This document shows, one piece after another, positions 1 to 20,641 of a DNA stretch of 64,000 bases. A program made the translations under genes and the position numbers. This DNA is from Eledone cirrhosa (lineage: Eukaryota). The number at the start of each line of letters is the position of its first letter. Position 1 is the stretch's first letter. The notes beneath the pieces were generated by a model. It ran no database searches and was not told the DNA's origin. It worked only from the letters and a program-made list of their open reading frames with translations. The stretch spans positions 277,574,001 through 277,638,000 of the forward strand of contig OZ024742.1 of the NCBI GenBank assembly GCA_964016885.1. Reading direction: 5' to 3'.

Positions 1-2
1 GG

Positions 3-74
3 ATCAGTGACCAGGATTCGAACCTGGGTTACCATGGGCACAACGTGGAGTCCTAACCACTAGACGATCACGGC
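3..74 (-). pseudogene. tRNA-His-derived copy type A (unit 1): GTG anticodon, damaged acceptor 3' end, no adjacent terminator
   Basis: Reverse complement is GCCGTGATCGTCTAGTGGTTAGGACTCCACGTTGTGCCCATGGTAACCCAGGTTCGAATCCTGGTCACTGAT. Changes are G37C, G40A and acceptor mismatches; A and B boxes are intact. Confidence 0.85.
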
Positions 75-384
75 AGTCAGCTAATACATATAACGACGGT
101 TCAATATTATAGTGATATATCAAAGTCCTTATCTAATGAGTTTCTTATACTGAGAGTTGTCAAATTCCACAAAGATTCAATCATTGTTTCTACAATAATG
201 AAATACATGATTATTTTAATGATTTTGCATTCATTTTTTTTCAATACTTTTAATATAAGATGTGATAAAACTTATTAAAAGGATCAGCTCCAATTATTGT
301 CATCGGTCAGTGATGATATTTGCTTACTAAATAATATAATCGTTAATATTCTGAATAATTCATATCTTTAGTTTCAAAATTTTG

Positions 385-393
385 AAAAAAAAA
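385..393 (-). terminator. RNA Pol III oligo-T terminator of the type-B tRNA-His (repeated in each unit)
   Basis: An A9 run on + is T9 on the tRNA strand, about 20 nt past the discriminator base. Confidence 0.8.
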
Positions 394-412
394 GGAAGAT
401 AAGCGTATCAGC

Positions 413-484
413 TGCCGTGACCAGGATTCGAACCTGGGTTACCACGGCCACAACGTGGGGTCCTAACCACTAGACGATCACGGC
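413..484 (-). tRNA. tRNA-His-GTG: tRNA-His(GUG), canonical (type B, unit 1)
   Basis: Reverse complement is GCCGTGATCGTCTAGTGGTTAGGACCCCACGTTGTGGCCGTGGTAACCCAGGTTCGAATCCTGGTCACGGCA. Full cloverleaf, A/B boxes, T-run about 20 nt downstream. Confidence 0.97.
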
Positions 485-1091
485 TAACAGCTAATACATA
501 AACGAGTCGCCCAAAATAACAATGATATATAGAAGTTGCTAACTACATTTTTCTCTTACATAGAGAGTTGTCAAATTAACCAAATATATAATCTTTCTAC
601 ATTTTACGTTGTTTCAGTTCACCTTTAGAACATTGTGAAATTCAACAAAGATTCAATCCTTATTTCTAGAACTCTCTTTCTGCTGGCAACTGGAAGATTC
701 AATGATAGGAATGAGGGATTACGACGTATATCTACTTTTCAATTACGAGAGGTTCATATATTTCAAAGTCTACTAAATGGGATATTATTAGCTAACCTTT
801 GTCAAATTTGTAGCAATAATTATACATTTGTTTTTTTCTTTTTTATCTATATTTACAAACATAGAAGCAAAATTAAGTAATGAGAAATGGGGAAAGAGTA
901 AAAAAGGGCAGATCTGGATTATGGGAAAGTAGACGAAAGGACTATAAAAGGCATAAATGAGAGGTAACAAGAACTCTAGGATAACATTAGAAAAGGAGGG
1001 AAAAGTGGAGATGGTGATTTGTTCTGATCCGAGGCGACGGACGGCGGGGTTGAATTACAAAACAATGTGTAAAAAATGCAACCGCATTAGC

Positions 1092-1163
1092 TGCCGTGAC
1101 CAGGATTCGAACATGGGTTACCACGGCCGTAACATGTGGTTCTAACCACTAGACGATCACGGC
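1092..1163 (-). tRNA. tRNA-His-body variant with ACG anticodon (type C, unit 1); possibly a pseudogene
   Basis: Reverse complement ...AGAACCACATG-TT-ACG-GC-CGTGGTAACCCATGTTCGAATCC... The acceptor stem is perfect, with single mismatches in the D, anticodon and T stems. A T6 terminator lies downstream. Confidence 0.75.
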
Positions 1164-1339
1164 AGTTAGCCAATACATACGAAAGACGTTCAAAATAATA
1201 CTGATATATAGAAGTTGCTGGCTATTTTGTTTCTTACTTAGAGAGTTGTCAAATTCAACAAAGATCTTTGTATATTTTACGTTGCTTTAGTTAAACCTTA
1301 GAACATTCAGTGACTGACAACATAGCTACCTTAGCAGCT

Positions 1340-1480
1340 CAACAGAAAGAATGAAGTAAATACAAGACATGAAAACAATAAGTACTGTGGTCAACATGGT
1401 TGACTAAATCTTTTCAAGATGGTACCCTGAATGGCCACAGTTTAATGATTGAAACTAGTAGAAGAATAAAATAAAGAATC
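1340..1480 (+). mobile_element. Degenerate SINE/LINE 3'-tail fragment inside the repeat unit (present in each unit)
   Basis: CTTTTCAAGATGGTACCCTGAATGGCCACAGT...GAAACTAGTAGAAGAATAAAA resembles the tail at 49855-49925. Confidence 0.5.
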
Positions 1481-1617
1481 TCAATGGTTTATATCACTTC
1501 TAAAATTATTGTTCTTTATATATTAACAGGTTTGTTACATAATAATATCAATATGACTTTTGTTGAGTTTCTTTAAAGGACGCGAGATATAAAAGAACAC
1601 ATCTAAGTGTAGAATCA

Positions 1618-2036
1618 TTAAGCCTTTTGATACTAAACCAGTTAAAACTGGTTCTGGTTCTATGAAACAAATGTACACATATTATAGGGTTCCTATTTAA
1701 ATTGAAATCTTCCATTTCATGTTAAGTTATTATCTTAGTAATAAAATAATAATTTTAGTAAATCCCTCAAAATTCTTCATTAATTAATTGAAATAGAGTG
1801 TACGTCATTAGAAATATGATCGCTAAAGTCCTAACCCCTTTAATACCAACCAGCCCTTGATCATCTCTGGTTCTATCAATCAAAATCACTAATTTTAAAG
1901 AATTCTTATTTAAATTAAAATTTTAGAAAATAATATTCGATAAGAAACATAATAAATAACTTTAGTAAATCGTTTAAAATTCTTCATTAATTAGTTGAAA
2001 TAAAATGTATTGGAAACACATCACAAACATGCTAAC
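1618..2036. mobile_element. Two tandem ~210-bp degenerate MITE-like copies with TTAACCCTTT-type ends (present in each unit)
   Basis: Internal ~208-bp duplication (TTAGTAAATC...TTCTTCATTAATTA.TTGAAATA). The homologous inverted copy at ~28650 shows the junction AAAAGAGTTAACCCTTTT. Confidence 0.45.
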
Positions 2037-2249
2037 AGTTATGGAATTACTGTCCTTCTCGTTGAGTCTAACATCATCACCATCATCATCACCATTACCA
2101 CCATCACCAGTAGCATTTTAAGGTTGCTTCTATGCTTACTAGGTTTGGATGGATCGTCATGGTGTGATTCAATTCTTTTTCTTCAACTTCTGCGTCCACT
2201 TATTTATGGGAATGTTGTGGGGGCAGAGTACTCAAACTCAGTGTTGGGG

Positions 2250-2321
2250 ATCAGTGACCAGGATTCGAACCTGGGTTACCATGGGCACAACGTGGAGTCC
2301 TAACCACTAGACGATCACGGC
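2250..2321 (-). pseudogene. tRNA-His type A (unit 2)
   Basis: Same sequence as 3-74. Confidence 0.85.
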
Positions 2322-2659
2322 AGTCAGCTAATACATATAACGACGGTTCAATATTATAGTGATATATCAAAGTCCTTATCTAATGAGTTTCTTATACTGA
2401 GAGTTGTCAAATTCCACAAAGATTCAATCATTGTTTCTACAATAATGAAATACATGATTATTTTAATGATTATGGATTCATTTTTTTTCAATACTTTTAA
2501 TATAAGATGTGATAAAACTTATTAAAAGGATCAGCTCCAATTATTGTCATCGGTCAGTGATGATATTTGCTTACTAAATAATATAATCGTTAATATTCTG
2601 AATAATTCATATTTTTAGTTTCAAAATTTTGAAAAAAAAAGGAAGATAAGCGTATCAGC

Positions 2660-2731
2660 TGCCGTGACCAGGATTCGAACCTGGGTTACCACGGCCACAA
2701 CGTGGGGTCCTAACCACTAGACGATCACGGC
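2660..2731 (-). tRNA. tRNA-His-GTG: tRNA-His(GUG), canonical (unit 2)
   Basis: Identical to 413-484. Confidence 0.97.
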
Positions 2732-3338
2732 TAACAGCTAATACGTAAAGAAGTCGCCCAAAATAGCAATGATATATAGAAGTTGCTAACTAATTTTTTT
2801 TCTTACACGGAGAGTTTTCAAATTAACCAGAGATATAATCTTTCTACATTTTATGTTGTTTCAGTTCACCTTTAGAACATTGTCAAATTCAACAAAGATT
2901 CAATCCTTATTTCTAGAACTCTCTTTCTGCTGGCAACTGGAAGATTCAATGATAGGAATGAGGGATTACGACGTATATCTACTTTTCAATTACGAGATGT
3001 TCATATATTTCAAAGTCTACTAAATGGGATATTATTAGCTACCCTTTGTCAAATTTGTAGCAATAATTATAGATTTGTTTTTTTCTTTTTTATCTATATT
3101 TACAAACATAGAAGCAAAATTAAGTAATGAGAAATGGGGAAAGAGTAAAAAAGGGCAGATCTGGATTATGGGAAAGTAGACGAAAGGACTATAAAAGGCA
3201 TAAATGAGAGGTAACAAGAACTCTAGGATCACATTAGAAAAGGAGGGAAAAGTGGAGATGGTGATTTGTTCTGATCCGAGGCGACGGACGGCGGGGTTGA
3301 ATTACAAAACGATGTGTAAAAAATGCAACAGCATTAGC

Positions 3339-3410
3339 TGCCGTGACCAGGATTCGAACATGGGTTACCACGGCCGTAACATGTGGTTCTAACCACTAGA
3401 CGATCACGGC
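3339..3410 (-). tRNA. Type C tRNA-His-body variant, ACG anticodon (unit 2)
   Basis: Identical to 1092-1163. Confidence 0.75.
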
Positions 3411-4496
3411 AGTTAGCCAATACATACGAAAACCGTTCAAAATAATACTGATATATAGAAGTTGCTGGCTATTTTGTTTCTTACTTAGAGAGTTGTCAAA
3501 TTCAACAAAGATCTTTGTATATTTTACGTTGCTTTAGTTAAACTTTAGAACATTCAGTGACTGACAACATAGCTACCTTAGCAGCTCAACAGAAAGAATG
3601 AAGTAAATACAAGACATGAAAACAATAAGTACTGTGGTCAACATGGTTGACTAAATCTTTTCAAGATGGTACCCTGAATGGCCACAGTTTAATGATTGAA
3701 ACTAGTAGAAGAATAAAATAAAGAATCTCAATGGATTATATCACTTCTAAAATTATTGTTCTTTATATATTAACAGGTTTGTTACATAATAATATCAATA
3801 TGACTTTTGTTGAGTTTCTTTAAAGGACGCGAGATATAAAAGAACACATCTAAGTGTAGAATCATTAAGCCTTTTGATACTAAACCAGTTAAAACTGGTT
3901 CTGGTTCTATGAAACAAATGTACACATATTATAGGGTTCCTATTTAAATTGAAATCTTCCATTTCATGTTAAGTTATTATCTTAGTAATAAAATAATAAT
4001 TTTAGTAAATCCCTCAAAATTCTTCATTAATTAATTGAAATAGAGTGTACGTCATTAGAAATATGATCGCTAAAGTCCTAACCCCTTTAATACCAACCAG
4101 CCCTTGATCATCTCTGGTTCTATCAATCAAAATCACTAATTTTAAAGAATTCTTATTTAAATTAAAATTTTAGAAAATAATATTCGATAAGAAACATAAT
4201 AAATAACTTTAGTAAATCGTTTAAAATTCTTCATTAATTAGTTGAAATAAAATGTATTGGAAACACATCACAAACATGCTAACAGTTATGGAATTACTGT
4301 CCTTCTCGTTGAGTCTAACATCATCACCATCATCATCACCATTACCACCATCACCAGTAGCATTTTAAGGTTGCTTCTATGCTTACTAGGTTTGGATGGA
4401 TCGTCATGGTGTGATTCAATTCTTTTTCTTCAACTTCTGCGTCCACTTATTTATGGGAATGTTGTGGGGGCAGAGTACTCAAACTCAGTGTTGGGG

Positions 4497-4568
4497 ATCA
4501 GTGACCAGGATTCGAACCTGGGTTACCATGGGCACAACGTGGAGTCCTAACCACTAGACGATCACGGC
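4497..4568 (-). pseudogene. tRNA-His type A (unit 3)
   Basis: Same sequence as 3-74. Confidence 0.85.
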
Positions 4569-4906
4569 AGTCAGCTAATACATATAACGACGGTTCAATA
4601 TTATAGTGATATATCAAAGTCCTTATCTAATGAGTTTCTTATACTGAGAGTTGTCAAATTCCACAAAGATTCAATCATTGTTTCTACAATAATGAAATAC
4701 ATGATTATTTTAATGATTTTGCATTCATTTTTTTTCAATACTTTTAATATAAGATGTGATAAAACTTATTAAAAGGATCAGCTCCCATTATTGTCATCGG
4801 TCAGTGATGATATTTGCTTACTAAATAATATAATCGTTAATATTCTGAATAATTCATATTTTTAGTTTCAAAATTTTGAAAAACAAAGGAAGATAAGCGT
4901 ATCAGT

Positions 4907-4978
4907 TGCTGTGACCAGGATTCGAACCTGGGTTACCACGGCCACAACGTGGGGTCCTAACCACTAGACGATCACGGT
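4907..4978 (-). tRNA. tRNA-His-GTG: tRNA-His(GUG) type B with G1A and G70A acceptor-stem mismatches (unit 3)
   Basis: Plus strand begins TGCTGTGACC and ends ATCACGGT; otherwise canonical. Confidence 0.75.
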
Positions 4979-5585
4979 TAACAGCTAATACATAAAAGAG
5001 TCGCCCAAAATAACAATGATATATAGAAGTTGCTAACTACATTTTTCTCTTACATAGAGAGTTGTCAAATTAACCAAATATATAATCTTTCTACATTTTA
5101 CGTTGTTTCAGTTCACCTTTAGAACATTGTCAAATTCAACAAAGATTCAATCCTTATTTCTAGAACTCTCTTTCTGCTGGCAACTGGAAGATTCAATGAT
5201 AGGAATGAGGGATTACGACGTATATCTACTTTTCAATTACGAGAGGTTCATATATTTCAAAGTCTACTAAATGGGATATTATTAGCTAACCTTTGTCAAA
5301 TTTGTAGCAATAATTATACATTTGTTTTTTTCTTTTTTATCTATATTTACAAACATAGAAGCAAAATTAAGTAATGAGAAATGGGGAAAGAGTAAAAAAG
5401 GGCAGATCTGGATTATGGGAAAGTAGACGAAAGGACTATAAAAGGCATAAATGAGAGGTAACAAGAACTCTAGGATCACATTAGAAAAGGAGGGAAAAGT
5501 GGAGATGGTGATTTGTTCTGATCCGAGGCGACGGACGGCGGGGTTGAATTACAAAACAATGTGTAAAAAATGCAACAGCATTAGC

Positions 5586-5657
5586 TGCCGTGACCAGGAT
5601 TCGAACATGGGTTACCACGGCCGTAACATGTGGTTCTAATCACTAGACGATCACGGC
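5586..5657 (-). tRNA. Type C variant, ACG anticodon, extra D-loop G19A change (unit 3)
   Basis: As 1092-1163 but TCTAATCACTAG on +. Confidence 0.65.
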
Positions 5658-6743
5658 AGTCAGCCAATACATACGAAAATCGTTCAAAATAATACTGATA
5701 TATAGAAGTTGCTGGCTATTTTGTTTCTTACTTAGAGAGTTGTCAAATTCAACAAAGATCTTTGTATATTTTACGTTGCTTTAGTTAAACTTTAGAACAT
5801 TCAGTGACTGACAACATAGCTACCTTAGCAGCTCAACAGAAAGAATGAAGTAAATACAAGACATGAAAACAATAAGTACTGTGGTCAACATGGTTGACTA
5901 AATCTTTTCAAGATGGTACCCTGAATGGCCATTGTTTAATGATTGAAACTAGTAGAAGAATAAAATAAAGAATCTCAATGGTTTATATCACTTCTAAAAT
6001 TATTGTTCTTTATATATTAACAGGTTTGTTACATAATAATATCAATATGACTTTTGTTGAGTTTCTTTAAAGGACGCGAGATATAAAAGAACACATCTAA
6101 GTGTAGAATCATTAAGCCTTTTGATACTAAACCAGTTAAATCTGGTTCTGGTTCTATGAAACAAATGTACACATATTATAGGGTTTCTATTTAAATTGAA
6201 ATCTTCCATTTCATGTTAAGTTATTATCTTAGTAATAAAATAATAATTTTAGTAAATCCCTCAAAATTCTTCATTAATTAATTGAAATAGAGTGTACGTC
6301 ATTAGAAATATGATCGCTAAAGTCCTAACCCCTTTAATACCAACCAGCCCTTGATCATCTCTGGTTCTATCAATCAAAATCACTAATTTTAAAGAATTCT
6401 TATTTAAATTAAAATTTTAGAAAATAATATTCGATAAGAAACATAATAAATAACTTTAGTAAATCGTTTAAAATTCTTCATTAATTAGTTGAAATAAAAT
6501 GTATTGGAAACACATCACAAACATGCTAACAGTTATGGAATTACTGTCCTTCTCGTTGAGTCTAACATCATCACCATCATCATCACCATTACCACCATCA
6601 CCAGTAGCATTTTAAGGTTGCTTCTATGCTTACTAGGTTTGGATGGATCGTCATGGTGTGATTCAATTCTTTTTCTTCAACTTCTGCGTCCACTTATTTA
6701 TGGGAATGTTGTGGGGGCAGAGTACTCAAACTCAGTGTTGGGG

Positions 6744-6815
6744 ATTAGTGACCAGGATTCGAACCTGGGTTACCATGGGCACAACGTGGAGTCCTAACCA
6801 CTAGACGATCACGGC
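6744..6815 (-). pseudogene. tRNA-His type A (unit 4)
   Basis: As 3-74 with one further 3' change. Confidence 0.85.
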
Positions 6816-7153
6816 AGTCAGCTAATACATATAACGACGGTTCAATATTATAGTGATATATCAAAGTCCTTATCTAATGAGTTTCTTATACTGAGAGTTG
6901 TCAAATTCCACAAAGATTCAATCATTGTTTCTACAATAATGAAATACATGATTATTTTAATGATTATGGATTCATTTTTTTTCAATACTTTTAATATAAG
7001 ATGTGATAAAACTTATTAAAAGGATCAGCTCCAATTATTGTCATCGGTCAGTGATGATATTTGCTTACTAAATAATATAATCGTTAATATTCTGAATAAT
7101 TCATATTTTTAGTTTCAAAATTTTGAAAAAAAAAGGAAGATAAGCGTATCAGC

Positions 7154-7225
7154 TGCCGTGACCAGGATTCGAACCTGGGTTACCACGGCCACAACGTGGG
7201 GTCCTAACCACTAGACGATCACGGC
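7154..7225 (-). tRNA. tRNA-His-GTG: tRNA-His(GUG), canonical (unit 4)
   Basis: Identical to 413-484. Confidence 0.97.
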
Positions 7226-7832
7226 TAACAGCTAATACGTAAAGAAGTCGCCCAAAATAGCAATGATATATAGAAGTTGCTAACTAATTTTTTTTCTTAC
7301 ACGGAGAGTTTTCAAATTAACCAGAGATATAATCTTTCTACATTTTATGTTGTTTCAGTTCACCTTTAGAACATTGTCAAATTCAACAAAGATTCAATCC
7401 TTATTTCTAGAACTCTCTTTCTGCTGGCAACTGGAAGATTCAATGATAGGAATGAGGGATTACGACGTATATCTACTTTTCAATTACGAGAGGTTCATAT
7501 ATTTCAAAGTCTACTAAATGGGATATTATTAGCTAACCTTTGTCAAATTTGTAGCAATAATTATACATTTGTTTTTTTCTTCTTTATCTATATTTACAAA
7601 CATAGAAGCAAAATTAAGTAATGAGAAATGGTGAAAGAGTAAAAAAGGGCAGATGTGGATTATGGGAAAGTAGACGAAAGGACTATAAAAGGCATAAATG
7701 AGAGGTAACAAGAACTCTAGGATCACAGTAGAAAAGGAGGGAAAAGTGGAGATGGTGATTTGTTCTGATCCGAGGCGACGGACGGCGGGGTTGAATTACA
7801 AAACAATGTGTAAAAAATGCAACCACATTAGC

Positions 7833-7904
7833 TGCAGGGTCCAGGATTCGAACATGGGTTACCACGGCCATAACATGTGGATCTAACCACTAGACGATCA
7901 CGGC
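7833..7904 (-). pseudogene. Type C variant with ATG anticodon and damaged acceptor stem (unit 4)
   Basis: Plus CCACGGCCATAACATGTGG gives loop TT-ATG-GC. The start TGCAGGGTCC breaks acceptor pairing. Confidence 0.75.
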
Positions 7905-8989
7905 AGTTAGCCAATACATACGAAAAACGTTCAAAATAATACTGATATATAGAAGTTGCTGGCTATTTTGTTTCTTACTTAGAGAGTTGTCAAATTCAAC
8001 AAAGATCTTTGTATATTTTACGTTGCTTTAGTTAACCTTTAGAACATTCAGTGACTGTCACATAGCTACCTTAGCAGCTCAACAAAAAGAATGAAGTAAA
8101 TACAAGACATGAAAACAAGAAGTACTGTGGTCAACATGGTTGACTAAATCTTTTCAATGTGGTGCCCTGAATGGCCACAGTTTAATGATTGAAACTAGTA
8201 GAAGAATAAAATAAAGAATCTCAATGGTTTATATCACTTCTAAAATTATTGTTCTTTATATATTAACAGGTTTGTTACATAATAATATCAATATGACTTT
8301 TGTTGAGTTTCTTTAAAGGACGCGAGATATAAAAGAACACATCTAAGTGTAGAATCATTAAGCCTTTTGATACTAAACCAGTTAAAACTGGTTCTGGTTC
8401 TATGAAACAAATGTACACATATTATAGGGTTCCTATTTAAATTGAAATCTTCCATTTCTTGTTAAGTTATTATCTTAGTAATAAAATAATAATTTTAGTA
8501 AATCCCTCAAAATTCTTCATTAATTAATTGAAATAGAGTGTACGTCATTAGAAATATGATCGCTAAAGTCCTAACCCCTTTAATACCAACCAGCCCTTGA
8601 TCATCTCTGGTTCTATCAATCAAAATCACTAATTTTAAAGAATTCTTATTTAAATTAAAATTTTAGAAAATAATATTCGATAAGAAACATAATAAATAAC
8701 TTTAGTAAATCGTTTAAAATTCTTCATTAATTAGTTGAAATAAAATGTATTGGAAACACATCACAAACATGCTAACAGTTATGGAATTACTGTCCTTCTC
8801 GTTGAGTCTAACATCATCACCATCATCATCACCATTACCACCATCACCAGTAGCATTTTAAGGTTGCTTCTATGCTTACTAGGTTTGGATGGATCGTCAT
8901 GGTGTGATTCAATTCTTTTTCTTCAACTTCTGCGTCCACTTATTTATGGGAATGTTGTGGGGGCAGAGTACTCAAACTCAGTGTTGGGG

Positions 8990-9061
8990 ATCAGTGACCA
9001 GGATTCGAACCTGGGTTACCATGGGCACAACGTGGAGTCCTAACCACTAGACGATCACGGC
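8990..9061 (-). pseudogene. tRNA-His type A (unit 5)
   Basis: Same sequence as 3-74. Confidence 0.85.
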
Positions 9062-9399
9062 AGTCAGCTAATACATATAACGACGGTTCAATATTATAGT
9101 GATATATCAAAGTCCTTATCTAATGAGTTTCTTATACTGAGAGTTGTCAAATTCCACAAAGATTCAATCATTGTTTCTACAATAATGAAATACATGATTA
9201 TTTTAATGATTAGGCATTCATTTTTTTTCAATACTTTTAATATAAGATGTGATAAAACTTATTAAAAGGATCAGCTCCAATTATTGTCATCGGTCAGTGA
9301 TGATATTTGCTTACTAAATAATATAATCGTTAATATTCTGAATAATTCATATTTTTAGTTTCAAAATTTTGAAAAACAAAGGAAGATAAGCGTATCAGC

Positions 9400-9471
9400 T
9401 GCCGTGACCAGGATTCGAACCTGGGTTACCACGGCCACAACGTGGGGTCCTAACCACTAGACGATCACGGC
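9400..9471 (-). tRNA. tRNA-His-GTG: tRNA-His(GUG), canonical (unit 5)
   Basis: Identical to 413-484. Confidence 0.97.
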
Positions 9472-10073
9472 TAACAGCTAATACGTAAAGAAGTCGCCCA
9501 AAATAGCAATGATATATAGAAGTTGCTAACTAATTTTTTTTCTTACACGGAGAGTTTTCAAATTAACCAGAGATATAATCTTTCTACATTTTATGTTGTT
9601 TCAGTTCACCTTTAGAACATTGTCAAATTCAAACAAGATTCAATCCTTGTTTCTAGAACTCTCTTTCTGCTGGCAACTGGAAGATTCAACGATAGGAATG
9701 AGGGATTACGACGTATATCTACGTTTCAATTACGAGAGGTTCATATATTTCAGTACTACTAAATGGGATATTATTAGCTAACCTTTGTCAAATTTGTAGC
9801 AATAATTATACATTTGTTTTTTTCTTTTTTATCTATATTTACAAACATATAAGCAAAATTAAGTAATGAGAAATGGGGAAAGAGTAAAGAAGGGCAGATC
9901 TGGATTATGGGAAAGCAGAAGAAAGGACTATAAAAGGCATAAATGATAGGAAACAAGAACTCTAGGATCACAGTAGAAAAGGAGGGAAAAGTGGAGACGG
10001 TGACTTGTCCTGATCCGAGGCGACGGCGGGGTTGAATTACAAAACAATGTGTAAAAAATGCAACCGGATTAGC

Positions 10074-10145
10074 TGTCGTGACCAGGCTTCGAACCTGGGT
10101 TACCACGGCCGTAACATGTGGATCTAACCACTAGACGATCACGGC
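10074..10145 (-). tRNA. Type C variant, ACG anticodon, intact T stem but other substitutions (unit 5)
   Basis: Plus TGTCGTGACCAGGCTTCGAACCTGGGTTACCACGGCCGTAACATGTGGATCT... Confidence 0.65.
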
Positions 10146-11230
10146 AGTCAGCCAATACATACGAAAATCGTTCAAAATAATACTGATATATAGAAGTTGC
10201 TGGCTATTTTGTTTCTTACTTAGAGAGTTGTCAAATTCAACAAAGATCTTTGTATATTTTACGTTGCTTTAGTTAAACTTTAGAACATTCAGTGACTGTC
10301 ACATAGCTACCTTAGCAGCTCAACAAAAAGAATGAAGTAAATACAAGACATGAAAACAAGAAGTACTGTGGTCAACATGGTTGACTAAATCTTTTCAAGA
10401 TGGTGCCCTGAATGGCCACAGTTTAATGATTGAAACTAGTAGAAGAATAAAATAAAGAATCTCAATGGTTTATATCACTTCTAAAATTATTGTTCTTTAT
10501 ATATTAACAGGTTTATTACATAATAATATCAATATGACTTTTGTTGAGTTTCTTTAAAGGACGCGAGATATAAAAGAACACATCTAAGTGTAGAATCATT
10601 AAGCCTTTTGATACTAAACCAGTTAAAACTGGTTCTGGTTCTATGAATCAAATGTACACATATTATAGGGTTTCTATTTAAATTGAAATCTTCCATTTCA
10701 TGTTAAATTATTATCTTAGTAATAAAATAATAATTTTAGTAAATCCCTCAAAATTCTTCATTAATTAATTGAAATAGAGTGTACGTCATTAGAAATATGA
10801 TCGCTAAAGTCCTAACCCCTTTAATACCAACCAGCCCTTGATCATCTCTGGTTCTATCAATCAAAATCACTAATTTTAAAGAATTCTTATTTAAATTAAA
10901 ATTTTACAAAATAATATTCTATAAGAAACATAATAAATAACTTTAGTAAATCGTTTAAAATTCTTCATTAATTAGTTGAAATAAAATGTATTGGAAACAC
11001 ATCACAAACATGCTAACAGTTATGGAATTACTGTCCTTCTCGTTGAGTCTAACATCATCACCATCATCATCACCATTACCACCATCACCAGTAGCATTTT
11101 AAGGTTGATTCTATGCTTAGTAGGTTTGGATGGATCGTCATGGTGTGATTCAATTCTTTATCTTCTTCTTCTGCGTCCACTTATTTATGGGAATGTTGTG
11201 GGGGCAGAGTACTCAAACTCAGTGTTGGGG

Positions 11231-11302
11231 ATCAGTGACCAGGATTCGAACCTGGGTTACCATGGGCACAACGTGGAGTCCTAACCACTAGACGATCACG
11301 GC
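11231..11302 (-). pseudogene. tRNA-His type A (unit 6)
   Basis: Same sequence as 3-74. Confidence 0.85.
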
Positions 11303-11641
11303 AGTCAGCTAATACATATAACGACGGTTCAATATTATAGTGATATATCAAAGTCCTTATCTAATGAGTTTCTTATACTGAGAGTTGTCAAATTCCACAA
11401 AGATTCAATCATTGTTTCTACAATAATGAAATACATGATTATTTTAATGATTTTGCATTCATTTTTTTTCAATACTTTTAATATAAGATGTGATAAAACT
11501 TATTAAAAGGATCAGCTCCAATTATTGTCATCGGTCAGTGATGATATTTGCTTACTAAATAATATAATCGTTAATATTCTGAATAATTCATATCTTTAGT
11601 TTCAAAATTTTGAAAAAAAAAAGGAAGATAAGCGTATCAGC

Positions 11642-11713
11642 TGCCGTGACCAGGATTCGAACCTGGGTTACCACGGCCACAACGTGGGGTCCTAACCACT
11701 AGACGATCACGGC
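11642..11713 (-). tRNA. tRNA-His-GTG: tRNA-His(GUG), canonical (unit 6)
   Basis: Identical to 413-484. Confidence 0.97.
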
Positions 11714-12320
11714 TAACAGCTAATACATAAAAGAGTCGCCCAAAATAACAATGATATATAGAAGTTGCTAACTACATTTTTCTCTTACATAGAGAGTTGT
11801 CAAATTAACCAAATATATAATCTTTCTATATTTTACGTTGTTTCAGTTCACCTTTAGAACATTGTGAAATTCAACAAAGATTCAATCCTTATTTCTAGAA
11901 CTCTCTTTCTGCTGGCAACTGGAAGATTCAATGATAGGAATGAGGGATTACGACGTATATCTACTTTTCAATTACGAGAGGTTCATATATTTCAAAGTCT
12001 ACTAAATGGGATATTATTAGCTAACCTTTGTCAAATTTGTAGCAATAATTATACATTTGTTTTTTTCTTTTTTATCTATATTTACAAACATAGAAGCAAA
12101 ATTAAGTAATGAGAAATGGGGAAAGAGTAAAAAAGGGCAGATCTGGATTATGGGAAAGTAGACGAAAGGACTATAAAAGGCATAAATGAGAGGTAACAAG
12201 AACTCTAGGATCACATTAGAAAAGGAGGGAAAAGTGGAGATGGTGATTTGTTCTGATCCGAGGCGACGGACGGCGGGGTTGAATTACAAAACAATGTGTA
12301 AAAAATGCAACAGCATTAGC

Positions 12321-12392
12321 TGCCGTGACCAGGATTCGACCATGGGTTACCACGGCCGTAACATGTGGTTCTAACCACTAGACGATCACGGC
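12321..12392 (-). tRNA. Type C variant, ACG anticodon, additional T54G B-box change (unit 6)
   Basis: Plus GGATTCGACCATGGG...GGCCGTAACATG. Confidence 0.6.
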
Positions 12393-13478
12393 AGTTAGCC
12401 AATACATACGAAAACCGTTCAAAATAATACTGATATATAGAAGTTGCTGGCTATTTTGTTTCTTACTTAGAGAGTTGTCAAATTCAACAAAGATCTTTGT
12501 ATATTTTACGTTGCTTTAGTTAAACCTTAGAACATTCAGTGACTGACAACATAGCTACCTTAGCAGCTCAACAGAAAGAATGAAGTAAATACAAGACATG
12601 AAAACAATAAGTACTGTGGTCAACATGGTTGACTAAATCTTTTCAAGATGGTACCCTGAATGGCCATTGTTTAATGATTGAAACTAGTAGAAGAATAAAA
12701 TAAAGAATCTCAATGGTTTATATCACTTCTAAAATTATTGTTCTTTATATATTAACAGGTTTGTTACATAATAATATCAATATGACTTTTGTTGAGTTTC
12801 TTTAAAGGACGCGAGATATAAAAGAACACATCTAAGTGTAGAATCATTAAGCCTTTTGATACTAAACCAGTTAAAACTGGTTCTGGTTCTATGAAACAAA
12901 TGTACACATATTATAGGGTTCCTATTTAAATTGAAATCTTCCATTTCATGTTAAGTTATTATCTTAGTAATAAAATAATAATTTTAGTAAATCCCTCAAA
13001 ATTCTTCATTAATTAATTGAAATAGAGTGTACGTCATTAGAAATATGATCGCTAAAGTCCTAACCCCTTTAATACCAACCAGCCCTTGATCATCTCTGGT
13101 TCTATCAATCAAAATCACTAATTTTAAAGAATTCTTATTTAAATTAAAATTTTAGAAAATAATATTCGATAAGAAACATAATAAATAACTTTAGTAAATC
13201 GTTTAAAATTCTTCATTAATTAGTTGAAATAAAATGTATTGGAAACACATCACAAACATGCTAACAGTTATGGAATTACTGTCCTTCTCGTTGAGTCTAA
13301 CATCATCACCATCATCATCACCATTACCACCATCACCAGTAGCATTTTAAGGTTGCTTCTATGCTTACTAGGTTTGGATGGATCGTCATGGTGTGATTCA
13401 ATTCTTTTTCTTCAACTTCTGCGTCCACTTATTTATGGGAATGTTGTGGGGGCAGAGTACTCAAACTCAGTGTTGGGG

Positions 13479-13550
13479 ATCAGTGACCAGGATTCGAACC
13501 TGGGTTACCATGGGCACAACGTGGAGTCCTAACCACTAGACGATCACGGC
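13479..13550 (-). pseudogene. tRNA-His type A (unit 7)
   Basis: Same sequence as 3-74. Confidence 0.85.
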
Positions 13551-13888
13551 AGTCAGCTAATACATATAACGACGGTTCAATATTATAGTGATATATCAAA
13601 GTCCTTATCTAATGAGTTTCTTATACTGAGAGTTGTCAAATTCCACAAAGATTCAATCATTGTTTCTACAATAATGAAATACATGATTATTTTAATGATT
13701 ATGCATTCATTTTTTTTCAATACTTTTAATATAAGATGTGATAAAACTTATTAAAAGGATCAGCTCCAATTATTGTCATCGGTCAGTGATGATATTTGCT
13801 TACTAAATAATATAATCGTTAATATTCTGAATAATTCATATTTTTAGTTTCAAAATTTTGAAAAAAAAAGGAAGATAAGCGTATCAGC

Positions 13889-13960
13889 TGCCGTGACCAG
13901 GATTCGAACCTGGGTTACCACGGCCACAACGTGGGGTCCTAACCACTAGACGATCACGGC
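13889..13960 (-). tRNA. tRNA-His-GTG: tRNA-His(GUG), canonical (unit 7)
   Basis: Identical to 413-484. Confidence 0.97.
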
Positions 13961-14567
13961 TAACAGCTAATACGTAAAGAAGTCGCCCAAAATAGCAATG
14001 ATATATAGAAGTTGCTAACTAATTTTTTTTCTTACACGGAGAGTTTTCAAATTAACCAGAGATATAATCTTTCTACATTTTATGTTGTTTCAGTTCACCT
14101 TTAGAACATTGTCAAATTCAACAAAGATTCAATCCTTATTTCTAGAACTCTCTTTCTGCTGGCAACTGGAAGATTCAATGATAGGAATGAGGGATTACGA
14201 CGTATATCTACTTTTCAATTACGAGATGTTCATATATTTCAAAGTCTACTAAATGGGATATTATTAGCTACCCTTTGTCAAATTTGTAGCAATAATTATA
14301 GATTTGTTTTTTTCTTTTTTATCTATATTTACAAACATAGAAGCAAAATTAAGTAATGAGAAATGGGGAAAGAGTAAAGAAGGGCAGATCTGGATTATGG
14401 GAAAGTAGACGAAAGGACTATAAAAGGCATAAATGAGAGGTAACAAGAACTCTAGGATCACATTAGAAAAGGAGGGAAAAGTGGAGATGGTGATTTGTTC
14501 TGATCCGAGGCGACGGACGGCGGGGTTGAATTACAAAACAATGTGTAAAAAATGCAACCGCATTAGC

Positions 14568-14639
14568 TGCCGTGACCAGGATTCGAACATGGGTTACCAC
14601 GGCCGTAACATGTGGTTCTAACCACTAGACGATCACGGC
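14568..14639 (-). tRNA. Type C variant, ACG anticodon (unit 7)
   Basis: Identical to 1092-1163. Confidence 0.75.
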
Positions 14640-15725
14640 AGTTAGCCAATACATACGAAAAACGTTCAAAATAATACTGATATATAGAAGTTGCTGGCTA
14701 TTTTGTTTCTTACTTAGAGAGTTGTCAAATTCAACAAAGATCTTTGTATATTTTACGTTGCTTTAGTTAAACTTTAGAACATTCAGTGACTGACAACATA
14801 GCTACCTTAGCAGCTCAACAGAAAGAATGAAGTAAATACAAGACATGAAAACAATAAGTACTGTGGTCAACATGGTTGACTAAATCTTTTCAAGATGGTA
14901 CCCTGAATGGCCATTGTTTAATGATTGAAACTAGTAGAAGAATAAAATAAAGAATCTCAATGGTTTATATCACTTCTAAAATTATTGTTCTTTATATATT
15001 AACAGGTTTGTTACATAATAATATCAATATGACTTTTGTTGAGTTTCTTTAAAGGACGCGAGATATAAAAGAACACATCTAAGTGTAGAATCATTAAGCC
15101 TTTTGATACTAAACCAGTTAAAACTGGTTCTGGTTCTATGAAACAAATGTACACATATTATAGGGTTTCTATTTAAATTGAAATCTTCCATTTCATGTTA
15201 AGTTATTATCTTAGTAATAAAATAATAATTTTAGTAAATCCCTCAAAATTCTTCATTAATTAATTGAAATAGAGTGTACGTCATTAGAAATATGATCGCT
15301 AAAGTCCTAACCCCTTTAATACCAACCAGCCCTTGATCATCTCTGGTTCTATCAATCAAAATCACTAATTTTAAAGAATTCTTATTTAAATTAAAATTTT
15401 AGAAAATAATATTCGATAAGAAACATAATAAATAACTTTAGTAAATCGTTTAAAATTCTTCATTAATTAGTTGAAATAAAATGTATTGGAAACACATCAC
15501 AAACATGCTAACAGTTATGGAATTACTGTCCTTCTCGTTGAGTCTAACATCATCACCATCATCATCACCATTACCACCATCACCAGTAGCATTTTAAGGT
15601 TGCTTCTATGCTTACTAGGTTTGGATGGATCGTCATGGTGTGATTCAATTCTTTTTCTTCAACTTCTGCGTCCACTTATTTATGGGAATGTTGTGGGGGC
15701 AGAGTACTCAAACTCAGTGTTGGGG

Positions 15726-15797
15726 ATCAGTGACCAGGATTCGAACCTGGGTTACCATGGGCACAACGTGGAGTCCTAACCACTAGACGATCACGGC
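15726..15797 (-). pseudogene. tRNA-His type A (unit 8)
   Basis: Same sequence as 3-74. Confidence 0.85.
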
Positions 15798-16136
15798 AGT
15801 CAGCTAATACATATAACGACGGTTCAATATTATAGTGATATATCAAAGTCCTTATCTAATGAGTTTCTTATACTGAGAGTTGTCAAATTCCACAAAGATT
15901 CAATCATTGTTTCTACAATAATGAAATACATGATTATTTTAATGATTTTGCATTCATTTTTTTTCAATACTGTTAATATAAGATGTGATAAAACTTATTA
16001 AAAGGATCAGCTCCCATTATTGTCATCGGTCAGTGATGATATTTGCTTACTAAATAATATAATCGTTAATATTCTGAATAATTCATATTTTTAGTTTCAA
16101 AATTTTGAAAAAAAAAAGGAAGATAAGCGTATCAGT

Positions 16137-16208
16137 TGCCGTGACCAGGATTCGAACCTGGGTTACCACGGCCACAACGTGGGGTCCTAACCACTAGACA
16201 ATCACGGC
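16137..16208 (-). tRNA. tRNA-His-GTG: tRNA-His(GUG) type B with C9T (unit 8)
   Basis: Canonical except CTAGACAATCACGGC on +. Confidence 0.9.
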
Positions 16209-16815
16209 TAACAGCTAATACATAAAAGAGTCGCCGAAAATAACAATGATATATAGAAGTTGCTAACTACATTTTTCTCTTACATAGAGAGTTGTCAAAT
16301 TAACCAAATATATAATCTTTCTACATTTTACGTTGTTTCAGTTCACCTTTAGAACATTGTCAAATTCAACAAAGATTCAATCCTTATTTCTAGAACTCTC
16401 TTTCTGCTGGCAACTGGAAGATTCAATGATAGGAATGAGGGATTACGACGTATATCTACTTTTCAATTACGAGAGGTTCATATATTTCAAAGTCTACTAA
16501 ATGGGATATTATTAGCTAACCTTTGTCAAATTTGTAGCAATAATTATACATTTGTTTTTTTCTTTTTTATCTATATTTACAAACATAGAAGCAAAATTAA
16601 GTAATGAGAAATGGGGAAAGAGTAAAGAAGGGCAGATCTGGATTATGGGAAAGTAGACGAAAGGACTATAAAAGGCATAAATGAGAGGTAACAAGAACTC
16701 TAGGATCACATTAGAAAAGGAGGGAAAAGTGGAGATGGTGATTTGTTCTGATCCGAGGCGACGGACGGCGGGGTTGAATTACAAAACAATGTGTAAAAAA
16801 TGCAACCGCATTAGC

Positions 16816-16887
16816 TGCCGTGACCAGGATTCGAACATGGGTTACCACGGCCGTAACATGTGGTTCTAACCACTAGACGATCACGGC
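16816..16887 (-). tRNA. Type C variant, ACG anticodon (unit 8)
   Basis: Identical to 1092-1163. Confidence 0.75.
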
Positions 16888-17973
16888 AGTTAGCCAATAC
16901 ATACGAAAAACGTTCAAAATAATACTGATATATAGAAGTTGCTGGCTATTTTGTTTCTTACTTAGTGAGTTGTCAAATTCAACAAAGATCTTTGTATATT
17001 TTACGTTGCTTTAGTTAAACTTTAGAACATTCAGTGACTGACAACATAGCTACCTTAGCAGCTCAACAGAAAGAATGAAGTAAATACAAGACATGAAAAC
17101 AATAAGTACTGTGGTCAACATGGTTGACTAAATCTTTTCAAGATGGTACCCTGAATGGCCATTGTTTAATGATTGAAACTAGTAGAAGAATAAAATAAAG
17201 AATCTCAATGGTTTATATCACTTCTAAAATTATTGTTCTTTATATATTAACAGGTTTGTTACATAATAATATCAATATGACTTTTGTTGAGTTTCTTTAA
17301 AGGACGCGAGATATAAAAGAACACATCTAAGTGTAGAATCATTAAGCCTTTTGATACTAAACCAGTTAAAACTGGTTCTGGTTCTATGAAACAAATGTAC
17401 ACATATTATAGGGTTTCTATTTAAATTGAAATCTTCCATTTCATGTTAAGTTATTATCTTAGTAATAAAATAATAATTTTAGTAAATCCCTCAAAATTCT
17501 TCATTAATTAATTGAAATAGAGTGTACGTCATTAGAAATATGATCGCTAAAGTCCTAACCCCTTTAATACCAACCAGCCCTTGATCATCTCTGGTTCTAT
17601 CAATCAAAATCACTAATTTTAAAGAATTCTTATTTAAATTAAAATTTTAGAAAATAATATTCGATAAGAAACATAATAAATAACTTTAGTAAATCGTTTA
17701 AAATTCTTCATTAATTAGTTGAAATAAAATGTATTGGAAACACATCACAAACATGCTAACAGTTATGGAATTACTGTCCTTCTCGTTGAGTCTAACATCA
17801 TCACCATCATCATCACCATTACCACCATCACCAGTAGCATTTTAAGGTTGCTTCTATGCTTAGTAGGTTTGGATGGATCGTCATGGTGTGATTCAATTCT
17901 TTTTCTTCTTCTTCTGCGTCCACTTATTTATGGGAATGTTGTGGGGGCAGAGTACTCAAACTCAGTGTTGGGG

Positions 17974-18045
17974 ATCAGTGACCAGGGTTCGAACCTGGGT
18001 TACCATGGGCACAACGTGGAGTCCTAACCACTAGACGATCACGGC
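17974..18045 (-). pseudogene. tRNA-His type A (unit 9)
   Basis: As 3-74 with a T-loop substitution (CCAGGGTTCG on +). Confidence 0.85.
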
Positions 18046-18384
18046 AGTCAGCTAATACATATTAACGACGGTTCAATATTATAGTGATATATCAAAGTCC
18101 TTATCTAATGAGTTTCTTATACTGAGAGTTGTCAAATTCCACAAAGATTCAATCATTGTTTCTACAATAATGAAATACATGATTATTTTAATGATTATGC
18201 ATTCATTTTTTTTCAATACTTTTAATATAAGATGTGATAAAACTTATTAAAAGGATCAGCTCCAATTATTGTCATCGGTCAGTGATGATATTTGCTTACT
18301 AAATAATATAATCGTTAATATTCTGAATAATTCATATTTTTAGTTTCAAACTTTTTGAAAAAAAAGGAAGATAAGTGTATCAAC

Positions 18385-18456
18385 TGCTGTGACCAGGATT
18401 CGAACCTGGGTTACCACGGCCACAACGTGGGGTCCTAACCACTAGACGATCACGGC
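18385..18456 (-). tRNA. tRNA-His-GTG: tRNA-His(GUG) type B with G70A (unit 9)
   Basis: Canonical except TGCTGTGACC on +. Confidence 0.82.
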
Positions 18457-19401
18457 TAACAGCTAATACGTAAAGCATCCACCCAAAATAACAATGATAT
18501 ATAGAAGTTGCTAACTACATTTTTCTCTTACATAGAGATTTGTCAAATTAACCAAATATATAATCTTTCTACATTTTATGTTGTTTCAGTTCACCTTTAG
18601 AACATTGTCAAATACAACAAAGATTCAATCCTTATTTCTAGAACTCTCTTTTTGCTGGCAACTGGAAGATTCAATGATAGGCATGAGGGATTACGACGTA
18701 TATCTACTTTTCAATTACGAGAGGTTCATATATTTCAAAGTCTACTAAATGAGATATTATTAGCTAACCTTTGTCAAATTTGTAGCAATAATTATACATT
18801 TGTTTTTTTCTTTTTTATCTATATTTACAAACATAGAAGCAAAATTAAGTAATGAGAAATGGGGAAAGAGTAAAGAAGGGCAGATCTGGATTATGGGAAA
18901 GCAGAAGAAAGGACTATAAAAGGCATAAATGAGAGGAAACAAGAACTCTAGGGTCACATTAGAAAAGGAGGGAAAAGTGGAGATGGTGATTTGTTCTGAT
19001 CCGAGGCGACGGCGGGGTTGAATTACAAAACAATGTGTAAAAAATGCAACCGTGTTAGTAAATCCCTCAAAATTGTTAAGTTTTTTCTTAGTAAGGATTT
19101 AATAATTTTAGTAAATAATTTTGTAGCAATAATATTGCACTTGTTTTTGTTTTCTATTTCTTTTTTTGTTGTTATTTTTAGGAGGGGGGTGTTTGTGTGT
19201 ATATTTACATATAAAAACAAAATTAAGTGATGAGAAGATGGGGGAAGTATAAAGAAGGGTAAATCTGGCTGTATGGGAAAGTAGAGGAAAAGACTATAAA
19301 TCCCACAAATAAGAGGAAAAGGAGGGGGAAAGCAAGGCCTCTAGGACCACAGCTTAAAAGGAGGGGTGGCGGAGGTAAATATTTCGGTCCTAGGACGCGG
19401 C

Positions 19402-19758
19402 AGGGTTAGGTCTCGCCCTGCGGAGAAGACAGCAAACGCATTTCCGCGGACAATAGCCAAAGATACTCGATTCAACAACCACCTTAACTCGCGGGGCTCC
19501 TTGCTCAGACTGGCTGCTGCCGTTCCAATCTTGCGGAGGAACTCTGCAGTACGGGGTCCGAGGAGGCCTGAGGTTTGAACGGGGACCAGTGTGAAGAGGA
19601 AGCGGCCGGGCAATTTCCAGTATTTCTTTGTCGTCCTGTTCTCTGCATTGCAGGCCTCAGTGCCGGGGTTTGTGACCGAAACGACTAAGTTGGAGGCGGA
19701 GAACGTGTCACATGTGACGTCGCAGATGGGGAATCTACCTCCTTCGAATGGGAAGAGG
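19402..19758 (-). mobile_element. 5'-truncated CRE-clade-like non-LTR retrotransposon, C-terminal restriction-like endonuclease (REL) region
   Basis: Minus-strand translation PFEGGRFPICDVTC-DTFSASNL...KKYWKLPGRFLFTLVPVQTSGLLGPRTAEFLRKIG...WLLNRVSLAIVRGNAFAV. This matches the CRE-type pattern WD.TC.DT...K..KY...F.P...ET.G..G...R.S.A..RGNA. Confidence 0.8.
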
Positions 19759-20007
19759 TTTTATTTATTATGAATTTGCAATCATTTATTTCCTAACCCA
19801 TAAAAGAAGCACGATAAAGAATTATGAGACGTGATGGGCATGGTTGGTACAGTTCTAGTTATTGTCATCCATAGAGGGATGACATTTTGCCTACAACATA
19901 GAGGGATGACATTTTGCCTACAACAACACAATTCTTAATGTTGCGAACGTGTTTTTCTTTAAATTACGAGACAATAAATTTAAAAAAAAAAGGTTATTCA
20001 TAATTCG

Positions 20008-20079
20008 TTGCATGACCGGGATATGAACCTCGATTACCACGGGCACAACGTGGAGCACCAACCACTAGACAAACACGGT
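20008..20079 (-). pseudogene. Degenerate tRNA-His (shares the type-A signature GGGCACAACGTGGAG)
   Basis: Many substitutions, including in the B box. Confidence 0.75.
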
Positions 20080-20569: not shown

Positions 20570-20641
20570 TGCCGTGACCAGGATTCGAACCTGGGTTACC
20601 ACGGCCACAACGTGGGGTCCTAACCGCTAGACGATCACGGC
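20570..20641 (-). tRNA. tRNA-His-GTG: tRNA-His(GUG), intact (T16C D-loop variant)
   Basis: Canonical except TAACCGCTAG on +; T-run terminator present. Confidence 0.93.

What the first reader, a model, noticed from the sequence alone, without database searches (positions are those of the whole stretch)
1..19052. Three-gene tRNA-His cassette amplified as a 2.25-kb macrosatellite, with three fixed gene types
Seen: each unit carries one canonical tRNA-His(GUG), one anticodon-altered copy and one 3'-remodelled copy, always in the same order and strand, and each type is homogenised across units. The three share a related 5' flank, so the unit arose from an older single-gene monomer. Inference: this is either recent amplification of one good gene with two hitch-hiking pseudogenes, or a co-amplified Pol III module producing three different RNAs. 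Dense B-box arrays can also act as TFIIIC boundary elements (established in yeast and mammals).
Basis: partly seen in the sequence, partly recalled or inferred. Interest (0 to 1): 0.75.

Follow-up and report, generated by a model that had tools for sequence, protein, structure and literature searches.

The report
Histidine tRNA array with two passengers
A 38-kb run of 17 near-identical repeats carries one usually intact histidine tRNA gene per repeat plus two broken sister copies that were likely carried along as passengers, an ordinary kind of tRNA array apart from one broken copy varying about three times more than the DNA around it.

Summary
The array is real: 17 units of about 2,247 bp (38.1 kb, half outside the window) inside an older tRNA-His cluster. 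The types are not fixed: A, B and C have 4, 5 and 8 haplotypes. B is canonical tRNA-His; the array holds 12 of the genome's 28 exact copies. The 3'-remodelled A is a gene cut at nucleotide 68 by the tip of a dispersed LINE, without acceptor end or nearby terminator. The anticodon-altered C has 1-7 broken stem pairs in 16 of 16 copies and is the most variable part of the unit (13/72 sites against 29/445 nearby, P=0.004), the opposite of a selected product. A and C signatures occur only in this array, and a relative shows no amplification. Best reading: unequal crossing-over amplified one working gene with two pseudogenes. Expression and TFIIIC binding are untested. The scan noted similar Val, Pro, Thr and Met arrays on other DNA of this genome (Pro cluster partly checked). 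The residual curiosity is C's excess variation, possibly from continued transcription without selection.

The parts
1..19058 (.). Right half (8.5 units) of a 17-unit, 38.1-kb tandem array with a unit of about 2,247 bp. The array starts 19,065 bases left of the window (G000:C3, about 277,554,900). Both ends fall at a C gene.
   Evidence: unit starts 1, 2248, 4495, 6742, 8988, 11229, 13477, 15724, 17972
413..484 (-). Type B: canonical tRNA-His(GUG) with intact A and B boxes and a T-run 20 nt downstream. Other copies start at 2660, 4907, 7154, 9400, 11642, 13889, 16137, 18385.
   Evidence: (62 bits); 12 of 17 array copies exact, 13 of 17 with all stem pairs
485..524 (-). 5' flank of B, about three times as variable across units as local spacer
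   Evidence: 10/40 against 37/439 segregating sites, P=0.003; pattern described for active tRNA genes in PMC6130373 (passages)
2254..2321 (-). Type A: first 68 nt of a tRNA-His gene (C26T and G40A in all 17 copies, G37C in 14 of 17); 3' acceptor end, trailer and terminator missing. Other copies end at 74, 4568, 6815, 9061, 11302, 13550, 15797, 18045.
   Evidence: 3-4 broken stem pairs in 17 of 17; first T4 245 nt downstream
2240..2253 (-). 14-nt linker between A and the LINE tip, holding a 9-nt inverted match to the LINE 3' region
   Evidence: 9-nt inverted match in 9 of 20 LINE copies; 4 of 2000 shuffled linkers do as well
2173..2239 (-). About 65-nt extreme 3' end of a dispersed LINE (RTE-like by recalled motifs) with a decayed (GAA)n tail
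   Evidence: 23 dispersed matches at 82-90% among 40 scored of 168 candidates; 20 copies aligned; weak RVT_1 match upstream in L047, E=2e-4, below the curated cut-off
1092..1163 (-). Type C: tRNA-His body with G23A, C27A, C30T, G34A in all 16 copies and T35C in 15 of 16 (anticodon ACG); T-run 16 nt downstream. Other copies start at 3339, 5586, 7833, 10074, 12321, 14568, 16816.
   Evidence: 36 bits in Rfam; 1-7 broken pairs in 16 of 16; 13/72 segregating sites
17410..17559 (.). Fragment of a very high-copy dispersed repeat in the C-to-A spacer (present in every unit)
   Evidence: summed contig depth 105,300 in X1 and 56,154 in X5 against 10-23 for single contigs
18760..19059 (.). Fragment of a second dispersed repeat in the B-to-C spacer (present in every unit)
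   Evidence: summed contig depth 2,240-4,624 in X1; matches on C1, C4, C28, C590
19059..49540 (.). Older, rearranged and mostly decayed tRNA-His cluster on both strands, sharing spacer pieces with the unit at 70-90% identity; it also extends to 32 kb left of the window
   Evidence: 37 tRNA-His-like copies outside the array in 164 kb, 6 of 37 with at most one difference

Best explanation
This is a 17-unit tandem array in which a 2.25-kb slice of an older tRNA-His cluster was likely multiplied by unequal crossing-over and gene conversion, with one likely working gene (B) and two likely pseudogene passengers (A and C) per unit. Shown: B keeps a full cloverleaf, both promoter boxes and a terminator in most copies. 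A lost its last four bases, trailer and terminator where a LINE tip joins it. C has uncompensated stem breaks and varies more than the spacer. Units are mosaics, with adjacent near-identical pairs and a block copied five units away. Inferred: B is transcribed (variable 5' flank around a conserved body); A is silent or nearly so (no excess variation in flank or body); C is dead as a tRNA but may still be transcribed, which would explain its excess variation. Also inferred: the damage to A and most of C's changes came before the amplification, so they look like types only because one founder unit was copied.
For: 17 units, mean pairwise 42.6 differences (1.9%), range 3-71. Four-gamete incompatibility 25/429 site pairs under 100 bp apart against 1068/2300 over 400 bp apart; units 9-11 match 14-16 with 9, 9 and 16 differences. 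B: 12 of 17 exact, body 4/72, flank 10/40 (P=0.006 body against flank); 16.8 sites expected if B were as free as C, 4 seen (P=0.0002). A: junction found 17 times, all in the array; tail is a dispersed LINE end; no gene remnant by four short motifs in 435 nt after the tail; body no more conserved than local spacer (P=0.49); 23% of spacer windows are as invariant. C: 1-7 broken pairs in 16 of 16; 13/72 against 29/445 (P=0.004), 15 parsimony events in 72 sites against 22 in 319 (P=0.001); 8 of 11 tested minor alleles absent from the 37 nearby paralogs; signature found 16 times, all in the array; a flank relative of C at -26387 (87%) holds an exact His gene. Relative X5: zero depth on the A gene and most of the A-B spacer, single-copy depth on the C bin. 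A tRNA-Pro cluster lies on the same contig (14 Pro... 16 Pro and 2 Leu calls in two 10-kb samples).
Against: Two of C's five shared changes fall in the 3-nt anticodon (P=0.011 by chance), and 2 of 16 C copies carry a compensating G43T that restores the 27:43 pair, one of them with a single broken pair. A's body and 5' flank are nearly invariant (1/68, 0/40), though not significantly below local background (combined P=0.15). B's body is not more conserved than plain spacer (4/72 against 88/1800, P=0.78) and 4 of 17 B copies have broken pairs, so selection on B is inferred only against a raised mutation rate. C's changes are 4 transitions and 9 transversions, like the spacer (33:55, P=0.76), not the C-to-T and G-to-A excess described for transcription-linked mutation (PMC13034040, passage). 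Site counts are not independent because segments of the unit have different genealogies, so the P values are optimistic; counting only non-singleton sites gives 7/72 against 69/1800, P=0.024. A hole in X5 contigs does not prove absence.
Confidence: 0.75

Rival explanations
1. Selection for tRNA-His dosage drove the amplification; A and C are still passengers.
For: The array holds 12 of 28 exact and 15 of 37 near-exact (at most one mismatch) tRNA-His genes of the genome.
Against: 16 exact copies lie outside the array, on C1, C2, C3, C4, C15 and C22. 4 of 17 B copies carry broken pairs. Other amino acids appear to be arrayed in the same way (unchecked notes).
Confidence: 0.12
2. C is a His-to-Arg anticodon shift, either on its way to function or being broken down under selection because it could misread arginine codons.
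For: Two-base change GTG to ACG in 15 of 16 copies; P=0.011 for two of five shared changes in the anticodon. ARAGORN calls Arg(ACG) for 7 of 8 window copies. Two copies have a compensated anticodon stem. Four variable sites lie in the 11-nt B box and four in the 3' acceptor strand. Two-base alloacceptor shifts are on record but rare (3 among 75 shifts; PMC3923123, passages).
Against: The D-stem pair 12:23 is broken in 16 of 16 copies and most have 3-4 breaks. Rfam score 36 against 62 bits. The predicted fold is not a cloverleaf (the canonical gene's predicted fold is not one either, so this is weak). The D loop has U where animal arginine tRNAs have A20 (recalled, not from a call). The type exists nowhere else in the genome.
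Confidence: 0.05
3. The dense intact B boxes make the array a TFIIIC-bound chromatin boundary, so A and C are kept as binding sites.
For: A and B boxes are intact in 16 of 17 A copies (the 17th differs at one B-box position) and in 15 of 17 B copies. The human 1q23.3 tRNA repeat is proposed as a boundary (PMC4041453, abstract).
Against: C's B box differs from the canonical one in 15 of 16 copies. The array sits inside an older tRNA cluster already rich in B boxes. No amplification in the relative X5. The human case rests on a conserved CTCF site, not tested here.
Confidence: 0.04
4. The unit is a co-amplified Pol III module selected to make three different RNAs.
For: Constant order and strand; all three keep promoter-like boxes; C keeps a terminator.
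Against: Constant order follows from tandem copying of one founder. C has 8 haplotypes in 16 copies. A's new end is LINE debris. If A were transcribed like B, 4.6 variable flank sites would be expected and 0 are seen (P=0.01).
Confidence: 0.02
5. A is a newborn SINE: a tRNA promoter head joined to a LINE 3' tail, ready to be mobilised.
For: It has the SINE layout: tRNA head, LINE 3' end and (GAA)n tail.
Against: All 17 junction copies lie in the array with their 5' flank; none is dispersed. The tail is decayed, and a transcript would run about 160 nt past it to the first T4. No sign of transcription in flank variation.
Confidence: 0.02

Closest known systems
Human 1q23.3 tRNA VNTR (PMC4041453; abstract and outline seen)
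   Same: Head-to-tail kilobase units with tRNA genes; 9-43 units per allele there, 17 here.
   Different: 7.3-kb GC-rich unit with a CTCF site conserved to mouse; here a 2.25-kb AT-rich unit with one isotype, two of three genes broken, and no sign of amplification in a relative.
Arabidopsis tRNA-Cys cluster on chromosome 5 (PMC10701932; abstract and outline seen)
   Same: One isotype in repeating units, with a pseudogene and transposon pieces.
   Different: Four units of 0.4 kb with the pseudogene outside the repeated unit; here the pseudogenes are inside the unit and were copied 16-17 times.
Transcription-associated mutagenesis at tRNA genes (PMC6130373, passages; PMC13034040, passages)
   Same: Variable 5' flank around a conserved body marks active genes; B fits.
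   Different: C shows excess variation in the body, with no excess of transitions.
Alloacceptor anticodon shifts (PMC3923123; passages)
   Same: Anticodon changed to that of another amino acid in a redundant gene family.
   Different: C carries uncompensated stem breaks and is not found outside one young array.
Entamoeba tRNA gene arrays (PMC2652664; search listing only)
   Same: tRNA genes in homogenised tandem units.
   Different: There nearly all tRNA genes are arrayed, with short tandem repeats between genes, over 10% of the genome; here one 38-kb locus.
tRNA-derived SINEs with LINE tails (general layout recalled; PMC4758252 seen as listing only)
   Same: A joins a tRNA head to a LINE 3' end.
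   Different: No dispersed copies.

Membership tests
tRNA gene macrosatellite / VNTR | Head-to-tail kilobase units carrying tRNA genes at one locus | tested here: met
   17 units, 96.7-99.6% identical to unit 1, one locus
tRNA gene macrosatellite / VNTR | Turnover by recombination between units | tested here: met
   four-gamete failures rise with distance; block copied five units away
tRNA gene macrosatellite / VNTR | Copy number varies between alleles | tested here: inconclusive
   X1 depth fits either about 17 per haplotype or about 17 in all; reduced-representation reads of three other samples show presence only
Boundary element (CTCF or TFIIIC) | Protein occupancy and insulation | not testable with these tools
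   needs ChIP or chromatin maps
Boundary element (CTCF or TFIIIC) | Conserved in related species | tested here: inconclusive
   one relative (X5) shows no amplification and no A junction, but contig holes prove nothing
Eukaryotic tRNA-His gene (type B) | Cloverleaf pairs, GUG anticodon, A and B boxes, T-run terminator | tested here: met
   13 of 17 copies with all pairs; T-run at +20 in the copy measured; Rfam 62 bits
Eukaryotic tRNA-His gene (type B) | Expressed and charged | not testable with these tools
   no RNA data were available
Eukaryotic tRNA-His gene (type A) | Intact acceptor stem and nearby terminator | tested here: not met
   3-4 broken pairs in 17 of 17; first T4 at +245
tRNA-Arg(ACG) (type C) | Intact cloverleaf | tested here: not met
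   1-7 broken pairs in 16 of 16
tRNA-Arg(ACG) (type C) | Arginine identity elements beyond the anticodon | not tested
   body is His-derived (6 differences from B); lack of A20 is recalled, not compared with this genome's Arg genes
tRNA-derived SINE (type A) | tRNA head plus LINE-derived 3' tail | tested here: met
tRNA-derived SINE (type A) | Dispersed copies that lack the parent's 5' flank | tested here: not met
   17 of 17 junction matches are in the array

The most novel reading that the evidence does not exclude
The C copies are still transcribed by RNA polymerase III into a histidine-bodied RNA with an arginine anticodon, so one 2.25-kb unit holds an active selected gene, a transcribed gene freed from selection and a silent gene side by side in 16-17 copies: a built-in experiment that reads out the raw mutation rate of a transcribed tRNA gene, and possibly an anticodon shift caught part-way.
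Probability: 0.25. Interest if true: 0.5.

Novelty: new member of a known kind. Interest (0 to 1): 0.25.

Why it matters
As it stands it is a clear, ordinary case of tRNA gene birth and death: one amplification supplied 12 of the 28 exact tRNA-His genes and copied two dead genes along, which shows how apparent gene types arise without selection and why tRNA annotation of such genomes overcalls (14 false Arg calls in this region). If C proves transcribed, the array would let one measure transcription-linked mutation in a tRNA body without the masking effect of selection, with internal controls.

Tried and rejected
A's odd 3' end as the array's unit junction: rejected, both array ends fall at C. 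A as a mobile SINE: no dispersed copies. A under selection: no lower than local spacer. C's variation from CpG decay: 10 of 13 sites are not CpG. C's variation from conversion with nearby paralogs: 8 of 11 tested minor alleles absent from 37 paralogs; more distant paralogs not checked. Large assembly collapse: not indicated. Expression: no RNA holder listed. X3 (label organism B) as a sister species: set aside; it holds the unit and the tandem junction nearly unchanged at depth 2.0-2.4 with no unique flank, which fits a trace of the same species in a second study. Minimum-energy folds do not separate the types well, since the canonical gene also fails to give a cloverleaf. In one search, 4 of 5 stretches had no Pfam match (two were aimed at the wrong place). 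The mariner-like remnant was not scanned against Pfam. tRNAscan-SE was not available. Paper searches for nuclear tRNA arrays in cephalopods gave nothing on the point among the titles listed (15 of 105 listed); one search gave one unrelated paper. Look-ups of earlier notes near the window and by sequence were empty. No supplementary files were read.
Full report
Observation. The window is G000:C3:277,574,001-277,638,000 in a 3.0-Gb genome. With 80 kb of left and 20 kb of right neighbour added, the array runs from window coordinate -19,065 to +19,058: 17 units, 38.1 kb, 17 A, 17 B and 16 C genes plus a deleted C-like gene at the left edge. Units are 96.7-99.6% identical to window unit 1. The types are recognisable but not fixed: 4, 5 and 8 haplotypes for A, B and C.

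Copy number. In run X1, which may be the source of the assembly, two array contigs are 135 and 173 deep against 10.3-11.4 for flank contigs identical to the assembly, a ratio of 13-17. Against summed flank bins (17-23) the array bins (about 190-220) give 9-11. The copy number is therefore of the order of the assembled one, but whether 17 is per haplotype or the diploid total is open. Run X3, from a second study, holds the whole unit and the tandem junction at depth 2.0-2.4 with no unique flank, which fits a multi-copy sequence at trace level. Reduced-representation reads of three further samples touch the A-B spacer at depth 1-7, and two of them the A gene at depth 1-3, showing presence only.

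Setting. The array lies in an older cluster: 37 further tRNA-His-like copies within 164 kb, on both strands, 6 of 37 with at most one difference from the canonical gene. Pieces of the unit's spacer recur there at 70-90% identity in shuffled order. The 5' flanks of A, B and C are 76-82% alike, but each has a closer relative outside the array (A 89%, B 93%, C 93%). The three lineages are thus older than the array, and the unit is a slice of the cluster rather than a fresh trimer. The spacer also holds pieces of high-copy dispersed repeats.

Type B. Twelve of 17 copies are exact and 13 of 17 keep every stem pair, with a T-run 20 nt downstream in the copy measured. The genome has 28 exact copies, 12 of them in the array, and 37 with at most one mismatch, 15 in the array. 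Across the 16 full units the 40 nt upstream of B are variable (10/40 against 37/439 locally, P=0.003) while the body is not (4/72). This is the pattern reported for active tRNA genes (PMC6130373, passages). Against this, the body is no more conserved than plain spacer (P=0.78), so selection is inferred only if the mutation rate is raised: 16.8 sites expected at C's fold excess, 4 seen.

Type A. After nucleotide 68 the gene gives way to a 14-nt linker and about 65 nt that match a repeat dispersed on many contigs at 82-90% (23 such matches among 40 scored of 168 candidates). Twenty of these copies end at the same point in (GAA)n and extend 5' for variable lengths; one carries a weak reverse transcriptase match (E=2e-4, below the Pfam cut-off; 1 of 5 stretches scanned). 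The RTE label rests on recalled motifs. The linker holds a 9-nt inverted match to the LINE's 3' region in 9 of 20 copies (4 of 2000 shuffles do as well), which fits a short inverted insertion with loss of the target, an inference. No remnant of the gene's end was found after the tail by four motifs. A has 3-4 broken pairs in 17 of 17 copies and its first T4 lies 245 nt downstream. Its low variation (1/68) equals that of its neighbourhood (18/461, P=0.49). It lacks B's flank excess (0 seen, 4.6 expected, P=0.01) and C's body excess (1 seen, 7.4 expected, P=0.005), so silence is the simplest reading. The junction occurs 17 times in the genome, all in the array, so this SINE-shaped chimera has not moved.

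Type C. Four changes are shared by all 16 copies and a fifth by 15; every copy has 1-7 broken pairs, and the B box differs from the canonical one in 15 of 16. A flank relative at -26,387 holds an exact His gene, so C is a decayed His gene. It is the most variable part of the unit: 13/72 segregating sites against 88/1800 in spacer and 29/445 locally (P=0.004); 2 of 1,674 overlapping spacer windows reach that density; local-tree parsimony gives 15/72 against 22/319 (P=0.001) and 7/40 for its 5' flank (P=0.03), although by segregating sites that flank is not raised (3/40, P=0.74). CpG decay and conversion from nearby paralogs do not account for it. Continued transcription without selection is the most likely cause, since C keeps its A box and terminator, but the changes show no transition excess (4:9 against 33:55 in spacer), unlike the spectrum described in PMC13034040 (passage). 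The effect weakens to P=0.024 without singletons, and sites are not independent. In favour of something more: two of five shared changes hit the anticodon (P=0.011) and two copies have a compensated anticodon stem. The C signature occurs 16 times, all in the array.

Mechanism of amplification. Mean pairwise distance is 42.6 differences per unit (range 3-71). Neighbouring units 1-2, 3-4 and 5-6 differ by 7, 9 and 3; units 9-11 match 14-16 with 9, 9 and 16; incompatible site pairs rise from 25/429 under 100 bp to 1068/2300 over 400 bp. These are the marks of unequal exchange and conversion, which is inferred.

Relatives. Run X5 (organism C) shares the dispersed repeats and the canonical gene but has zero depth on the A gene and most of the A-B spacer and single-copy depth on the C bin. 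This suggests the amplification is lineage-specific; contig holes are not proof, and only one relative was seen.

Comparison with what is known. Tandem tRNA arrays are described in human (PMC4041453, abstract and outline), Arabidopsis (PMC10701932, abstract and outline) and Entamoeba (PMC2652664, listing). Earlier unchecked notes of this scan report Val, Pro, Thr and Met arrays with decayed members on other DNA of this genome; I confirmed only that a dense tRNA-Pro cluster lies where stated. Searches for a description of nuclear tRNA arrays in cephalopods showed none among the listed titles, which covers only the held library.

Verdict. A real, young, single-locus tRNA-His macrosatellite: one working gene and two passengers per unit (confidence 0.75), a new member of a known kind, interest 0.25. 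The one feature worth a bench test is whether C is transcribed. Expression, Pol III and TFIIIC occupancy remain untested.

Noticed in passing
flanks of canonical tRNA-His genes: window 390-500, L051-L062: The 5' leader and 3' trailer can pair into a helix that extends the acceptor stem, with different sequences in different gene families: mean pairing score 15.0 for 16 trailer families against 9.6 when partners are swapped, 0 of 5000 swaps as high. Such pairing is recalled as known for yeast pre-tRNAs; one search returned only three RNase P enzymology papers.
   Followed up: partly
window 21367-21585: 36 copies of a telomere-type hexamer inside a transposase-like remnant (mariner-like by recalled motifs), with a 191-bp, 89.5% identical duplication on its two sides; looks like a healed break.
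   Followed up: partly
window 49737-49846: A single 5S rRNA-like copy (60.7 bits, 110 nt against a model of 120) at the far edge of the His cluster.
   Followed up: no
L010 (window coordinates -16873 and -14630): Two C copies carry A29G and G43T, restoring the 27:43 pair; the first has only one broken pair.
   Followed up: partly
L051 (G000:C22:19,549,269-19,553,776): A separate cluster of five exact tRNA-His genes with a different family of flanks.
   Followed up: partly
window 29334-29407: The closest flank relative of C (93%) has its own changes and is called tRNA-Gln(CTG) by ARAGORN, a second independent anticodon change at this position.
   Followed up: no
window 16810-21300 in run X1: Flank contigs identical to the assembly are 10-11 deep while summed flank bins are 17-23 deep and an array contig 173 deep; one reading is that the other haplotype carries few or no units.
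   Followed up: no
L063, L064 (G000:C3:236.11-236.15 Mb): Dense tRNA-Pro cluster, 16 Pro and 2 Leu calls in two 10-kb samples.
   Followed up: partly
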